From: the human T2T-CHM13v2.0 reference genome, Homo sapiens
Length of the DNA stretch: 64,000 nt
Strand: one strand, 5' to 3'
Assembly: GCF_009914755.1 (NCBI RefSeq)
Contig: NC_060931.1
The notes under the pieces were generated by a model, which saw nothing but the letters and a program-made list of their open reading frames with translations, searched no databases and was not told where the DNA came from. A program made the position numbers and the translations under genes. The stretch's first letter is position 1. Each line of letters opens with the position of its first letter. Positions 3,303 through 33,975 of the stretch are shown here, in pieces.

Positions 3303-3714
3303 GTGAGTCTGGACACCATGTATAAATATTTTGAAAACTTCCTGTTACAATTTAATTTACTCCATTGTGTTAGAGGGAGTGCTTCCCTGCACATGGTGTT
3401 CTGTATATTTATTGGTTGATGTGCTTTAGGGTATAGTAATTATTTATAGCAATAGATTGATACCCAGGTTGCAGAGTTGCTTTAGTTATATCTTTATTTC
3501 CTTTTCTTAGAGATTATAGACATAATTTGCTTCTGTCATCTTTTGACCAAAAATCTAATGGGAATGAAGAATTACACTTGAATGTTTATTTTTAAGTAAT
3601 AAGTTCTGTGATAGTGATTATAGGTGTCTGCATTTAAAAAAATGTTTTAAAAAGTACAGAGGTCAAACAAGCATCTGTATGATTGAACAAATGTTATTTC
3701 GTATATTTCTGTCA

Positions 3715-4134
<420 letters not shown>

Positions 4135-5736: not shown

Positions 5737-6032
<296 letters not shown>

Positions 6033-6675
6033 TGACACAAGGTTTTACTTGTGCACTGCTTTAGATCTCTTCCTGCCCTGGACTAGACTAGAAATTGGCC
6101 ATGGATCTTTATACAGTTCCCACATTATTACGTGAACTCAGCAGCTTATGTTGGAAGAAATGGAGGGAAAAAGAGGGAGGAACGTTTCTCTGCATTTAGG
6201 GATTCAAGGGGTCAGGAAAACAAGCTTTAAGCTTTTGGTTGTACACCTCTCTAGCTCTAGCTTTCCTTTCACTGAGGGGTTATGGATCTTATTTCAGAGG
6301 GAAGGAAACTGTCCTGTCCCAAGCCCACTGTGACACGTGACCCTTAACTAGTATACCTGTGGGGAGGGCTTCAGTTGCCACCCTAGAGAATGTGGGAGGG
6401 CTTCCCTTCCCCTGCCCCCATTTGTAGACATGGGAGTGTCTCCATTGCTTTGTATGCTGTTGCATTCTCCTCCCTCCTTGTTTTCCCTAAGCTAAGCTCT
6501 AAGCTAATTCTGTACAAAATACTGATTGTTTTTGTAAATTGCTTGCCATGAATGCCTGATAATGTACAGTGAAATAGGATTCTGCATACCATTAAATATG
6601 TCAAATATTACAAACTTTAAGGTTCTTTTGAAATTACAATACTAAACTCAGTTCACTTTTGCTTAGCCTTCACAG

Positions 6676-6743
6676 TTGTTGATCACATAGCATGGTCATC
6701 CACTCACAGCTTAAAAAAATACAGGGAGCATCGGAGAGAATGG
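6676..6743 (+). other. LUC7L2: Alternative cassette exon in intron 1 (68 nt): frameshifting, with an ATG (6692) giving the N-terminus MVIHSQLKKIQGASERM(G)-DTTRQ
   Basis: Acceptor cttttgcttagccttcacag|TTG, donor TGG|gtaaag. The ATG frame joins exon 2 in phase, G-runs lie downstream, and I recall this as an annotated isoform. Confidence 0.8.
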
Positions 6744-7927: not shown

Positions 7928-8221
<294 letters not shown>

Positions 8222-9680
8222 TCATTGTGACAGGATACTTTTTCCCCCATAATAGGTTATTTTTATATGACTTTATGCCCACAAAACCCAAAGATAAAAC
8301 ACATTAAATTGAAAATAATTTCTTGTATTATAAGGTGATTTGGTTCCTATTTGCAGTTCTTTCTTCTTTTTATAAAATAGGTGCTGTTTTACCTAGTTTC
8401 TTATGAAAAACATGGTTTGGGCCAGATATCTTGACAGAAACCAAATTACCAGCATTTTTCTTTTAAAAATTATTGTTGGTTTAGCTGAATTGTACTGCCA
8501 TGGAATAAGCCCAAATAAATTTGTTAAGTACTGCATGGTTATGCAGCCAGATTGTTTTAAAATGTAAACCTTAAAGTCCCCAAGGCAGAACTTTAAAAAT
8601 ATCAATAAACAGTCAGTTGCTATTCTCTCTCAAGGTATTTCTGTATCTCAAATTATTAAGCGTTTTATTATTTCATTGTTTTAAAGATTTCTATAATGGC
8701 TGCTATTTGATAGCTGTATTTGTTGAGTTTGCTACGGTTATCAAATATTTATGGAGCACCCATTCATTTGCGGTGAGGAGTTATTTTAAAATGTTTTTTG
8801 GCATTTATAGAAACAGATTCTGATCTTAAAAGCTCACCAGGGAAAATATGTACAACTATTATGTATCCATAAAAATTTTAAAAAACACAAAAAAGCTCAC
8901 CAGGGATACTGCCTGGTTTGCTATATTCCTATTAGGAATTTGTTCATATTTTAACTGATAGCTGTGTCTTCAGGGCACAATAACTTAATATTTGAATATA
9001 AGTTGTTAAGCACAAATCAGTTACTCTGCCTGATGAAATGTTTGATTAGTAAAACTCCATGAATACTGATTTTATTCTAAGGCCTGAGCCATTAGTTTAA
9101 CAAAGCACTGAAATGATTCTGCTGTTGCCATTACCAAAACATTTAGATACTTTTAGCAGGAAGACTTATTAGATACATAAGGGATTTTTTTGTTTTGTTT
9201 TGTTTTTGTTTCAACTTTAAAATTTTATCATTTTAAAATTGCTTAATATAATTAGGGTACAGATTTAAAATGAAATTTTTTTCTTAAATGGTAGGAAGCA
9301 AAAAGCTTCTAATTAAATAGCATTGACATTCTGATATGAGTTTATCATAGCACCATTCTAACATGAGCTTGAGGTCCTCACCAAAGTCTTGATGAAACAT
9401 ACTTTTTAAAGAAATAATTTTTTAAAACCCCACTTGGCTCAAAGACATTGTCCAGAGCTCCAGCTTTGGACTTTTACCTGTAGTCAGTCATACAATTATC
9501 TGGGGTTATACTTGTTAAGTCAGTATTTAAAAAAATGAAACACCCTGATTTTGTTCACTTTTGTTTTTATATAAAAGAATCTTTACAGTCAACATGTACT
9601 TCTAGATGCTGTATTGAAATTGCTGGCAGAGTTTATTCTATACAAAATGAACAATCTGGCCCCTTGTTTTATTTGTAAAG

Positions 9681-9751
9681 GTTCAATGTATCTATGCCTG
9701 CCTACCTCAATCTGCAAGGGAGTGTCAGAAAGGCCCCGCATTCGCCAAGCC
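9681..9751 (+). other. LUC7L2: Alternative cassette exon in LUC7L2 intron 1 (71 nt): frameshifting poison exon, also carrying an ATG (9694) that gives the alternative N-terminus MPAYLNLQGSVRKAPHSPS(R)-DTTRQ
   Basis: Acceptor ccttgttttatttgtaaag|GTT, donor GCC|gtgagt. The ATG frame joins exon 2 in phase. CpG-retaining, repeat-free context. I recall this N-terminus as an annotated LUC7L2 isoform. Confidence 0.85.
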
Positions 9752-10910
9752 GTGAGTTATCGCTAACTTTTCAGATGTGTTAATGAATGTGGAACAAAAG
9801 CAGTTGTGTTTAAAAGGAAAAAGGACCATCAAAATAACTTTTATTATAGTAGCAGGCGTAAACACTAAACTGAATATTCCAAATTGTGTCAAAAATAACC
9901 TACTAGAGACGAGCTTCTAGAAAACCTATTGTTGAACTGCTCTGAAGCTATCATTTTAACTATAAATTACTGTTGTTAAAATTTTATATACCCTGGTTGC
10001 AAATTAGAATGTTTTAAAAATATCTTTAACCACGTTAAAACAATTTGAACAAAATCTTACCCCATCTAAAAATGATAGTGTTTAGTTGAATTTAAGTTAA
10101 GCTCTTTAGTATATGACCATATGAAGGGGTAAAGTTTTAATCTTTTTTGTTATTTACATGTGAAAATACAGAAACTAAGTGATTGAATCACATCCTACAC
10201 GAAAGTTTTTGGAGTGCTCCAGGCATATCATGTGAAATACAGAGGTATTTATATCTCTTTTGGCACCAATAGTTCTTGCTTCAGTAATTCACCAGTAGGT
10301 TTTCATTCATCGATAATATATCAGTTTAAGGCTAAAATAAAACACCTACATTTCTTAGGGCTTATCATTCTATATAGAAAGAGGAAACATCCTAATGAGT
10401 TTTTTCTTTTGTTTTTCCAAAGAGATTCTAAGCAAAAAAATTTTAACTAACATCTATATTTTGTTATTGGAGCTAGTTACCTTTCTTTTTCTTAGATTCT
10501 TTAACGTTTTGAGTAGATAGCCATATTTGATAAGCAGGTTGGATGCTTCTGTTGCTTAGGAGGTAGGTGTATTGTGTTATATGAAGACAGAATGAATTTA
10601 AATATACCCAGTTTGGCAGTATGAAAAAGCTCAGACTACATAAAACTTGGAGGTATGGAACCTTTGGACGCATTAAAGTTAACGTTTCATTAGGCAATGT
10701 GCCTTTGTTTGACTGGTGTGTAAGTCCTTCTTCCAGGTTTGTACGCTCTTAAACGCGTTATTCTACCCTCTCTAACTCCTCCCAGCAGCAAAAGGGAGAC
10801 ACTTCAGCTGGAACAAAATAGTGGAAGAAATGGCGTCTGGGGTTCAGTGGGGATTCGCAGTGTGTATGCAATGTTTGCAAGATTATTTTTTATGTTTTTC
10901 AATTACTGTA

Positions 10911-11341: not shown

Positions 11342-11436
11342 GAGATACAACTCGTCAACGAATCAAATTCAGTGATGACAGAGTATGCAAGAGTCACCTT
11401 CTCAACTGTTGTCCTCATGATGTCCTTTCTGGAACT
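11342..11436 (+). CDS. LUC7L2: LUC7L2 exon 2 (95 nt, phase 1->0): (G)DTTRQRIKFSDDRVCKSHLLNCCPHDVLSGT, N-half of zinc finger 1
   Basis: Acceptor ctcttctatattacag|GA, donor ACT|gtatgt. The manual translation matches the LUC7-family N-terminal CCCH zinc finger. Confidence 0.98.
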
Positions 11437-12466
11437 GTATGTATTTACTAAATGTATTGTTAGATTACTGATATGCTGCAGTAATGAACTACTTGATAAA
11501 GTCTTAATTCTGTGTCAAAAGAATTGACTTGTGAGGGGAGATTTGCATCCTTTATTGTTTGTTTATTCAGGATGATTACTTAAATCTTCAGTAATGGGTT
11601 TCCTCACAAAAGTGGTTGATACGTTTTGTTTTATAATTTTTTCCATTCTTCAGAGCAGTTTTTTAAAAGCATGTTTTATTTGGAATACAGAAGTAGTTAT
11701 ATAGCATTTGTACTTTTAGTTCAGAAATAAAATAATTTATTTTTAAAGTTCCTTTTACTGTTAAACAGAGTAGACTTTTATCTAGTACGGTATACATTTT
11801 TGTTAAGATTTGTACACATTTGTGGAATCAGTGGGGAAATATATTAGTAAATACTTATATCCACACAGCTTAATTTGGGAGTATTGTCACTTAAAATATT
11901 GCTCCTGCTAATAATGTAAAGCTCAATTTAGATTCTATGTCTGCAGAGATGTTGATCTTAGAGTATCATCGTTTTAATTTGGAAGATAAACTGCATGATG
12001 ATGGACCTGTTGGAATGTGGAACAGAGAATTTGATTCTCTGAATTTTGGATTTGGTTGAAATGATTACAAGTAGCTTCCCTTCATAGTTGCATCTGATGC
12101 TGGTGGGGAGCTAGTAGGGGCTAAACCTCGAGCTGGCTTTAGTTCTCATTTGCCAGAAATGACTGAAATGAAGAAAGATTTCTGACTTGCCTTTTCAGAA
12201 GCAATGAGTTTCTCAGCCAAATGAGTGGTTTCTTCTTTGATAGGAAGAGTTAAAATTAAGGACATGCCCCAAAGAGAGATGTATCAAGGCATATGCAACA
12301 GGAAACACCTTTGACTTTTTCCAGGAGGAAAGACAGTTGAAACTATATTATGTTAACGGGGAAAAAAGAGCCTAAGTTTATTTTAAAGTATAATACTACA
12401 AAGCAAGAAATCCAGTTTCTGAGCACAGGAATTTGGAAGGACTGTGACAGATAATAAATATAATAA

Positions 12467-33876: not shown

Positions 33877-33975
33877 AGAATGGATCTTGGAGAATGTCTG
33901 AAAGTCCATGACCTGGCTTTAAGAGCGGATTATGAAATTGCATCCAAAGAACAAGATTTTTTCTTTGAACTTGAT
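33877..33975 (+). CDS. LUC7L2: LUC7L2 exon 3 (99 nt, phase 0->0): RMDLGECLKVHDLALRADYEIASKEQDFFFELD
   Basis: Acceptor ttttttcccttccag|AGA, donor GAT|gtatgt. Completes ZnF1 (C-x7-C-x14-C-x3-H across exons 2-3). Confidence 0.98.

What the first reader, a model, noticed from the sequence alone, without database searches (positions are those of the whole stretch)
9681..9751. 71-nt exon with three possible fates, including an in-frame swap for exon 2 that could rebuild zinc finger 1
Seen: the exon is stop-free in all three frames. (a) Included with exon 2 it shifts the frame to TGA 33899-33901 in exon 3, an NMD target. (b) From ATG 9694 it gives MPAYLNLQGSVRKAPHSPSR-DTTRQ. (c) It has the same phase as exon 2 (71 and 95 are both 3n+2, phase 1->0), so exon1-71nt-exon3 is in frame: GSMYLCLPTSICKGVSERPRIRQA-RMDLGECLKVH. 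This gives C-x5-C-x18-C-x3-H instead of the native C-x7-C-x14-C-x3-H. Inference: a mutually exclusive isoform with an altered ZnF1 may exist. It may also be coincidence.
Basis: partly seen in the sequence, partly recalled or inferred. Interest (0 to 1): 0.75.

Follow-up and report, generated by a model that had tools for sequence, protein, structure and literature searches.

The report
Known LUC7L2 autoregulatory poison exon
This 71-base exon is the already published self-regulating "poison" exon of the splicing factor gene LUC7L2, and the proposed zinc-finger-rebuilding swap for exon 2 is correct arithmetic with no biological support found.

Summary

The exon is already in print. It is the "LUC7L2 AE2" exon of Kenny et al. 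2025 (PMC11842720, section 8). That paper reports it as homologous to the LUC7L PTC exon, promoted by LUC7L and LUC7L2 and repressed by LUC7L3 through its 5' splice site. My alignment gives the paper's figure, 58 of 71 bases (82%), and the same splice-site 9-mer.

The exon sits in a conserved island of about 125 bases. That island is more alike between the two paralogs than coding exons 2 and 3 are. This points to constraint on the RNA.

From the exon-1 AUG, inclusion gives a stop 74 bases before the exon 3/4 junction. That is a classic poison exon.

The in-frame swap for exon 2 is probably coincidence, for four reasons:
- The LUC7L copy is 70 bases long, so its swap is out of frame.
- The unrelated 77-base exon in the same intron also swaps in frame.
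- The swapped peptide matches neither the LUC7 profile nor exon 2.
- I found nothing in print about such an isoform.

Junction reads could not be checked here.

The parts
9632..9680 (+). Conserved intron stretch upstream of the exon. It holds the pyrimidine tract and a weak AAG| acceptor.
   Evidence: 39 of 51 alignment columns are identical to the LUC7L intron. The flanks further out fall to 20/52 and 82/200. The -3 A of the acceptor is the same in both paralogs.
9681..9751 (+). 71-nt cassette exon, the published LUC7L2 'AE2' or poison exon.
   Evidence: 58/71 bases are identical to the 70-nt LUC7L exon at G000:C16:222228-222159, which equals the 82% stated in PMC11842720 section 8. A genome-wide search gave only the self match and that one paralog match.
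9752..9760 (+). 5' splice site, GCC|GTGAGT. The exon side is weak and the intron side strong, which the paper calls 'right-handed'.
   Evidence: The 9-mer spanning -3..+6 is identical in LUC7L. PMC11842720 section 8 reports that swapping this site abolishes regulation by LUC7L2 in a minigene.
9686..9688 (+). First ATG in the exon. It is in the frame that runs to the premature stop.
   Evidence: It has T at -3 and T at +4. The LUC7L copy has GTG here.
9694..9696 (+). Second ATG, in frame with exon 2 (reading b).
   Evidence: It has T at -3 and C at +4. The LUC7L copy has TTG here.
11342..11436 (+). Constitutive exon 2 (95 nt). It encodes the first two Zn ligands of ZnF1.
   Evidence: It matches Pfam LUC7 positions 23-50 at 30.4 bits. 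It aligns to yeast Luc7 residues 37-61 in 5zwn_Y and related entries.
33877..33975 (+). Exon 3 (99 nt). It encodes the third Cys and the His of ZnF1.
   Evidence: It matches Pfam LUC7 positions 51-82 at 27.5 bits.
33899..33901 (+). Premature TGA reached when the 71-nt exon is included together with exon 2.
   Evidence: It ends 74 nt upstream of the exon 3 donor.
6667..6743 (+). The other annotated alternative exon (77 nt), used here as a control.
   Evidence: It is also 3n+2, also open from the exon-1 frame, and also gives an open swap for exon 2. It has no paralogous copy in the genome.

Best explanation
The 71-nt exon is the conserved negative-feedback (poison) cassette exon of LUC7L2.

They are then out of frame in exon 2 and stop at TGA 33899-33901 in exon 3, with seven exon junctions downstream. 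That mRNA is non-productive and a candidate for nonsense-mediated decay. LUC7L3 has the opposite effect.

Shown here:
- the exon's anatomy, its reading frames and the premature stop;
- homology to the LUC7L poison exon;
- a conservation pattern that fits constraint on the RNA rather than on a protein.

Taken from print:
- regulation by the LUC7 proteins through the 5' splice site (minigene work);
- the 'poison exon' label and the NMD-inhibitor RT-PCR.

Inferred:
- NMD is the main fate;
- little protein is made from AUG 9694.
For: Identity with the published exon. The exon is 58/71 (82%) identical to the LUC7L exon and has an identical 5' splice-site 9-mer. PMC11842720 section 8 (read whole) gives the same two facts for 'LUC7L2 AE2'. 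The other alternative exon, 6667-6743, has no paralog.

Premature stop. Inclusion gives a stop 74 nt before the exon 3/4 junction. The 70-nt LUC7L copy likewise gives a stop, in exon 2.

RNA-level conservation.
- The island 9632-9757 is the only non-repeat match in this intron to the LUC7L 5' region; the only other collinear matches are exons 1 and 2.
- Exon nt 1-51 are 46/51 identical, and the upstream intron is 39/51 columns identical. Coding exon 2 is only 67/95 and exon 3 only 72/99, with most of their changes at third codon positions.
- The intron in front of exon 2 is 20/58 identical.
- A passage in section 11 of PMC11842720 dates the LUC7L/LUC7L2 duplication to about 425 Myr.

Initiation context. 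The exon-1 AUG sits in GCCGCCATGT. AUG 9686 and AUG 9694 both have T at -3, and 9694 lies inside the ORF that starts in exon 1.

Literature.
- PMC11842720 section 8 reports that LUC7L and LUC7L2 overexpression raises AE2 inclusion, that LUC7L3 lowers it, and that a splice-site swap abolishes the effect.
- Passages of 10.1101/2025.04.25.648738 speak of 'poison exon inclusion' in LUC7L and LUC7L2, with RT-PCR with and without SMG1i.
- Passages of PMC11648925 say that mouse Luc7l2 encodes splicing-mediated non-productive isoforms.
Against: [quoted passage not shown] It describes AE2 as replacing the N-terminal helix, which is reading (b).

RefSeq lists the exon among exons of other LUC7L2 transcripts (hub table). 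I could not see those transcripts' type or CDS.

The ZNF207 preprint says that 'most' of four tested events affect stability through NMD. I could not see the figure, so the result for LUC7L2 itself is unknown to me.

I have no expression data. Conservation was measured only between two human paralogs, because no other vertebrate genome is reachable with these tools.
Confidence: 0.88

Rival explanations
1. Reading (b) is the exon's main purpose. Under this view the exon provides an alternative start codon (AUG 9694) and makes a LUC7L2 isoform whose N-terminal Sm-ring-binding helix is replaced by about 20 unrelated residues. That isoform would be a functionally different, or inactive and competing, protein.
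For: AUG 9694 is in frame with exon 2. PMC11842720 section 8 describes AE2 in exactly this way. AUG 9694 is specific to LUC7L2, since LUC7L has TTG there. That could be a gain of function. Passages of 10.64898/2026.06.26.734742 report that a LUC7L isoform lacking the N-terminal helix is inactive in their U1/5'SS binding assay, so such an isoform would behave differently.
Against: In transcripts that carry exon 1, scanning ribosomes first meet a strong AUG (GCCGCCATGT) whose ORF runs across 9694. They then meet AUG 9686 in another frame. AUG 9694 has T at -3 and C at +4. In frame (b), all 5 paralog differences in nt 1-51 fall at codon positions 1 and 2 (3, 2 and 0 at positions 1, 2 and 3). The ATG is not shared by LUC7L although the exon is conserved. 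The peptide was not found in the full-text library (0 papers).
Confidence: 0.06
2. Reading (c). Under this view the 71-nt exon and exon 2 are mutually exclusive, and exon1-71-exon3 encodes a LUC7L2 with an altered first zinc finger (C-x5-C-x18-C-x3-H).
For: The arithmetic is right, and NMD would remove both the both-in and the both-out combinations. That is the pattern of frame-enforced exclusive exons. Both Cys codons are kept in the LUC7L copy, and 3 of the 5 paralog differences in nt 1-51 are at third positions of this frame. All conditions together are met by only 12 of 566 pseudo-exons in the window.
Against: - The LUC7L copy is 70 nt, so its swap is out of frame and stops at once. The property is therefore not conserved with the exon.
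- The unrelated 77-nt exon also swaps in frame.
- Frame (c) is also the frame read in the poison isoform, so its conservation does not single out the swap.
- 3 of 5 is not significant. By my estimate such a result arises by chance about one time in four once the best of three frames is picked.
- The swap peptide matches no Pfam family at E<=10, whereas exon 2 scores 30.4 bits on LUC7.
- BLASTP finds no alignment to exon 2 at E<=100.
- The residues shared by exon 2 and yeast Luc7 around the two Cys (K-S after the first, P-x-D after the second, then G-T) are absent, and the yeast spacing is also x7.
- The donor of exon 2 (ACT|GTATGT) is also weak on the exon side. By inference LUC7L2 should favour both exons together rather than one or the other.
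- Literature: 72 papers hold 'LUC7L2' and 'mutually exclusive', 15 were listed, and I read passages in 5. None of those passages describes such an isoform of LUC7L2.
Confidence: 0.03
3. The short protein made from the poison isoform is itself functional. It consists of the exon-1 helix followed by the exon's frame-(c) residues, which are shared by both paralogs. It might act as a decoy for the Sm-ring contact.
For: The first 15 codons of frame (c) are identical at 13 of 15 positions between the paralogs, with 3 synonymous changes. Both paralogs keep the exon free of stops in that frame.
Against: The upstream intron is conserved as well (39/51 columns). The exon's 3' part has diverged (18/28) and carries a 1-nt indel, so the two tails differ. 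The mRNA is predicted to be unstable. There are only five informative differences.
Confidence: 0.03

Closest known systems
LUC7L2 'AE2' (alternative second exon), Kenny et al., Nat Commun 2025, PMC11842720
   Same: It is the same object. It shows 82% identity to the LUC7L PTC exon, has an identical 5' splice site, and lies between exons 1 and 2 (against section 8 of the paper).
   Different: Nothing differs in the object itself. The paper stresses the replaced N-terminal helix (reading b) and says that no PTC exon is annotated. The frame arithmetic here shows that, read from the exon-1 AUG, it is a PTC exon just like the LUC7L one.
LUC7L intron-1 poison exon (human and mouse; PMC11648925, PMC11842720, 10.64898/2026.06.26.734742)
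   Same: It is a paralogous copy with the same acceptor context, the same donor 9-mer and the same position after exon 1. Inclusion frameshifts to a premature stop.
   Different: The LUC7L copy is 70 nt rather than 71 nt. It has neither of the two ATGs. Its stop falls in exon 2 rather than exon 3, and its swap for exon 2 is out of frame.
Highly conserved poison exons of SR proteins and other splicing factors, with auto- and cross-regulation between paralogs such as PTBP1/PTBP2 (recalled; cited in PMC11842720 section 8)
   Same: It is a cassette exon in a splicing-factor gene. It is conserved at all codon positions together with its flanking intron. Its inclusion is promoted by the gene's own product and by a paralog.
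   Different: According to the paper, regulation here runs through the character of the 5' splice site read by the U1-associated LUC7 protein. It does not run through exonic or intronic binding motifs.
Frame-enforced mutually exclusive exon pairs
   Same: The two exons are of the same length class, and both-in and both-out are out of frame.
   Different: There is no sequence similarity between the two exons. No junction evidence is available. The property is absent from the paralog.

Membership tests
Poison (AS-NMD) cassette exon of a splicing factor | Cassette exon with usable AG and GT splice sites inside a coding-region intron | tested here: met
   The borders are AAG|G...GCC|GTGAGT. RefSeq annotates the exon (hub table).
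Poison (AS-NMD) cassette exon of a splicing factor | Inclusion creates a stop more than 50-55 nt upstream of a downstream exon junction | tested here: met
   TGA 33899-33901 ends 74 nt before the exon 3 donor, and further junctions follow.
Poison (AS-NMD) cassette exon of a splicing factor | Nucleotide conservation of the exon and flanking intron beyond what coding would require | tested here: met
   This was tested between paralogs only. The exon is 58/71 identical and the upstream intron 39/51 columns, against 67/95 for coding exon 2 and 72/99 for exon 3. Conservation across species could not be tested.
Poison (AS-NMD) cassette exon of a splicing factor | The inclusion isoform is stabilised when NMD is blocked | not testable with these tools
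   Passages of 10.1101/2025.04.25.648738 report RT-PCR with and without SMG1i for LUC7L2 and say that 'most' events are NMD-linked. I did not see the figure.
Poison (AS-NMD) cassette exon of a splicing factor | Inclusion is promoted by the gene's own protein | not testable with these tools
   PMC11842720 section 8 reports minigene assays in which LUC7L or LUC7L2 overexpression raises inclusion.
Mutually exclusive exon pair (71-nt exon with exon 2) | Same length class, so that exactly one of the two keeps the frame | tested here: met
   71 and 95 are both 3n+2. Both-in and both-out are out of frame.
Mutually exclusive exon pair (71-nt exon with exon 2) | The two exons encode related sequence | tested here: not met
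   BLASTP finds no alignment at E<=100. The swap peptide matches 0 Pfam families, while exon 2 matches LUC7.
Mutually exclusive exon pair (71-nt exon with exon 2) | The property is kept where the exon is kept | tested here: not met
   The LUC7L copy is 70 nt, and exon1-70-exon3 stops immediately.
Mutually exclusive exon pair (71-nt exon with exon 2) | Observed splice junction 9751->33877 | not testable with these tools
   No RNA-seq data can be reached. Nothing was found in the passages I read.
LUC7 first zinc finger (CCCH) | Ligand spacing C-x7-C-x14-C-x3-H | tested here: not met
   The native spacing is x7/x14/x3 and the swap gives x5/x18/x3. Yeast Luc7 also has x7 between the first two ligands.
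LUC7 first zinc finger (CCCH) | Conserved non-ligand residues around the first two Cys | tested here: not met
   Exon 2 shares these residues with yeast Luc7 residues 37-61. The swap peptide gives no LUC7 profile match.

The most novel reading that the evidence does not exclude
A single-base length difference (71 nt in LUC7L2, 70 nt in LUC7L) may have turned an ancestral pure poison exon into a LUC7L2-specific switch that also has productive outputs. One output would be an exon-2-replacing isoform with a non-canonical first zinc finger. The other would be a helix-less isoform from the LUC7L2-specific AUG 9694. If so, feedback would change the kind of LUC7L2 protein made as well as its amount.
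Probability: 0.04. Interest if true: 0.6.

Novelty: already known. Interest (0 to 1): 0.15.

Why it matters
LUC7L2 is lost or reduced in -7/del(7q) myeloid neoplasms (abstracts of PMC11842720 and PMC8078730). Its dose depends on this feedback exon.

Knowing that the exon is a true premature-stop exon when read from the exon-1 AUG makes it an obvious handle for raising LUC7L2 output from a remaining allele, for example by blocking its inclusion. That suggestion is my inference and was not tested.

The zinc-finger swap would be interesting if it were real, because the role of ZnF1 is still open (discussion passages of PMC11251517). Nothing found here supports it.

Tried and rejected
- Other vertebrate genomes: none can be reached with these tools, so per-frame dN/dS across species was not possible. 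Only the human LUC7L paralog could be compared.
- Structure prediction of the swapped finger: not run. The spliced protein is a joined sequence, which the tools do not accept.
- RNA structure: RNAalifold on the two paralogs proposes two small helices. The single-sequence fold is no more stable than shuffles (z = -0.73, with 47 of 200 shuffles folding at least as well). No pair shows a compensatory change (0 of 21). I rejected this as evidence and kept it as a lead.
- Peptide search in the paper library: 0 papers.
- Literature on a LUC7L2 mutually exclusive event: 72 papers hold both terms and 15 were listed. Passages read in PMC8078730, PMC8299698, PMC8966091, PMC13102718 and 10.1101/2025.04.25.648738 contained nothing on it.
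- Further papers read with nothing on this exon: PMC13100119 and PMC9808567 and PMC11389820.
- Jourdain et al. 2021, cited by others for LUC7L NMD, is not held.
Table S3 of PMC8078730 (rMATS events, including mutually exclusive ones) and the source data of PMC11842720 may bear on reading (c).
- Earlier findings of this scan were not open.
- Repeat origin: rejected. The exon region matches only itself and LUC7L in the whole assembly.

Full report
**1. The observation**

The sequence is as described. Window 9681-9751 is a 71-nt stretch bounded by ...TAAAG| and |GTGAGT. It has no stop codon in any forward frame. Only 1229 of 63929 71-nt windows on this strand share that property, or 1.9%.

Exon 1 of LUC7L2 lies outside the window. 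I located it in the same assembly by homology to LUC7L exon 1. Its coding part is window -4458..-4398, and it ends with a single G of a split codon before GTAAGT.

A script that joined the exons by coordinates confirmed all three readings:
- Reading (a): exon1-71-exon2-exon3 stops at TGA 33899-33901.
- Reading (b): ATG 9694 is in frame with exon 2.
- Reading (c): exon1-71-exon3 stays open, and the Cys/Cys/Cys/His spacing becomes x5/x18/x3 instead of x7/x14/x3.

**2. What it is**

A search of the whole assembly with 320 bases around the exon found two places. One is the query itself. The other is chr16:222153-222279 on the minus strand, at 84% identity and E = 1.2e-26. That second place lies between LUC7L exon 1 (chr16:223165-223105) and LUC7L exon 2.

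The exon is 58/71 (82%) identical to the LUC7L copy. The donor 9-mer GCC|GTGAGT and the AAG| acceptor are the same in both.

Kenny et al. [quoted passage not shown] They report that it is 82% identical to the LUC7L PTC exon and has an identical 5' splice site. The two descriptions coincide.

The other annotated alternative exon of this intron, 6667-6743, has no paralogous copy. The finding is therefore AE2.

According to that section of the paper:
- LUC7L or LUC7L2 overexpression raises AE2 inclusion in a minigene, and LUC7L3 lowers it.
- Replacing the "right-handed" donor with a "left-handed" one of similar strength abolishes regulation by LUC7L2.

Three further sources bear on it, read as passages only:
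- A preprint (10.1101/2025.04.25.648738) speaks of poison-exon inclusion in LUC7L and LUC7L2 and of RT-PCR with and without an SMG1 inhibitor. I could not see the figure.
- PMC11648925 describes the mouse Luc7l poison exon and says that Luc7l2 also encodes splicing-mediated non-productive isoforms.
- 10.64898/2026.06.26.734742 describes the human LUC7L poison exon in intron 1.

**3. How it most likely works**

The conservation pattern points to constraint on the RNA.
- Between the paralogs, the island 9632-9757 is the only non-repeat match in this intron; the only other collinear matches are exons 1 and 2. The remaining matches hit several chr16 places and look like dispersed repeats.
- Inside the island, the 49 intron bases before the exon are 39/51 columns identical. 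Exon bases 1-43 are 40/43 identical, bases 44-71 are 18/28, and there is a 1-nt indel.
- Outside the island, identity falls to the level of unrelated sequence: 20/52, 82/200, 42/97 and 88/212.
- Coding exon 2 is only 67/95 identical and exon 3 only 72/99, with most changes at third codon positions. The intron before exon 2 is 20/58.
- A passage in section 11 of PMC11842720 dates the LUC7L/LUC7L2 duplication to about 425 million years ago. An exon that has stayed more alike than its coding neighbours, together with its acceptor region and donor, fits a regulated splice unit.

In transcripts with exon 1, the first AUG sits in GCCGCCATGT, a strong context. Its ORF passes through the 71-nt exon in frame (c). 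It is out of frame in exon 2 and ends 74 nt before the exon 3/4 junction. The LUC7L copy does the same, with its stop in exon 2.

I therefore read the exon as a poison exon in a negative feedback loop. That NMD is the main fate is an inference from the position of the stop and from the cited preprint.

**4. Reading (b)**

AUG 9694 is real and in frame. However, it has T at -3 and C at +4. It follows another weak AUG (9686) in a different frame, and it lies inside the ORF that starts in exon 1. LUC7L has TTG at this position and GTG at the 9686 position.

Translation from 9694 would need a downstream transcription start or heavy leaky scanning. It may exist as a minor product, and the published description of AE2 emphasises it.

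**5.

For:
- The arithmetic is right.
- The both-in and both-out combinations are out of frame, as in frame-enforced exclusive pairs.
- The two Cys codons are kept in LUC7L.
- Of the five paralog differences in exon bases 1-51, three are at third positions of this frame and none at second positions.
- Only 12 of 566 AG...GTRAG pseudo-exons in the window are 3n+2, open and carry at least 2 Cys.

Against:
- The LUC7L copy is 70 nt, and exon1-70-exon3 stops after a few codons. The in-frame swap is therefore not a conserved property of this exon. A frameshifting poison exon has an even chance of being 3n+2.
- The unrelated 77-nt exon is also 3n+2, is also open from exon 1, and also gives an open swap. 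Coincidences of this kind occur in this very intron.
- Frame (c) is also the frame translated in the poison isoform. The Cys codons sit in the stretch that is 90% identical regardless of codon position. Their conservation therefore cannot single out the swap.
- Five differences carry no statistical weight.
- The swap peptide matches no Pfam family at E<=10, while exon 2 scores 30.4 bits on LUC7 positions 23-50. BLASTP finds no alignment between the two at E<=100.
- Exon 2 aligns to yeast Luc7 residues 37-61 (E = 0.015, 2 of 2 hits are Luc7 chains). The two share not only the two Cys at x7 spacing but also several neighbouring residues, and none of these appear in the swap peptide.
- The donor of exon 2 is also weak on the exon side. 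By inference LUC7L2 should favour both exons rather than choose between them.
- I found no mention of such an isoform.

I put reading (c) at about 3%. The direct test is junction reads, which were out of reach.

**6. Comparison with known systems, and novelty**

The exon is the published LUC7L2 AE2 and belongs to the well-known class of conserved poison exons in splicing-factor genes with auto- and cross-regulation between paralogs. It meets the features I could test: splice sites, a premature stop more than 50 nt upstream of a junction, and conservation of exon and flanks between paralogs. NMD sensitivity and autoregulation rest on print.

It fails three of the four features I listed for a mutually exclusive pair. 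The swapped finger fails both features of LUC7 ZnF1.

Two small additions go beyond the paper:
- Read from the exon-1 AUG, AE2 is a premature-stop exon exactly like the LUC7L one.
- The two copies differ by one base in length, which explains why only LUC7L2 has "productive-looking" readings.

**7. Limits**

- No other vertebrate genome, RNA-seq data or proteomics data could be reached.
- The spliced protein could not be folded, because joined sequences are not accepted.
- Jourdain et al. 2021 is not held.
- My recollection of the RefSeq and UniProt isoform descriptions was not used as evidence.

**Verdict**

Interest is 0.15.

Noticed in passing
window 6667-6743: The other annotated alternative exon (77 nt) is also 3n+2 and open in the frame coming from exon 1. 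It carries two ATGs (6692, 6740) in frame with exon 2. Unlike the 71-nt exon, it has no paralogous copy anywhere in the assembly. It is probably a younger exon.
   Followed up: partly
window 9640-9652 with 9681-9691: The consensus fold of the two paralogs pairs intron bases upstream of the pyrimidine tract with the first 11 bases of the exon, which loops out the tract and the acceptor. All 10 pairs are invariant, and the paralog differences nearby fall in the bulge and loop. There are no compensatory changes and no thermodynamic support (z = -0.73).
   Followed up: partly
window 9740-9745 with 9752-9757: A possible 6-bp hairpin could occlude the donor GTGAGT. Three one-sided changes in LUC7L keep the pairing. 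They are all transitions opposite G or U, so this is weak evidence.
   Followed up: partly
L021:542-602 (window -4458..-4398): The coding exon 1 of LUC7L2 lies only 4.4 kb before the window, although the gene table gives the gene span from -24247. The longer span must belong to other transcripts that start near FMC1.
   Followed up: no
window 3722-4039, 5770-5889, 7937-8014: These stretches match several different places in the 5-kb LUC7L region at 77-89% identity, which is the behaviour of dispersed repeats. 3708-4044 is listed as masked in the hub table.
   Followed up: no
window 11434-11445: The donor of constitutive exon 2, ACT|GTATGT, has little exon-side complementarity to U1 by eye. LUC7L has ACG|GTAGGT. 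Exon 2 may itself depend on LUC7L or LUC7L2.
   Followed up: no
G000:C13:69313213-69313682 and G000:C4:41355888-41355983: Weak LUC7-profile matches with internal stops turn up on chr13 and chr4. They are probably processed pseudogene fragments of a LUC7 family member.
   Followed up: no
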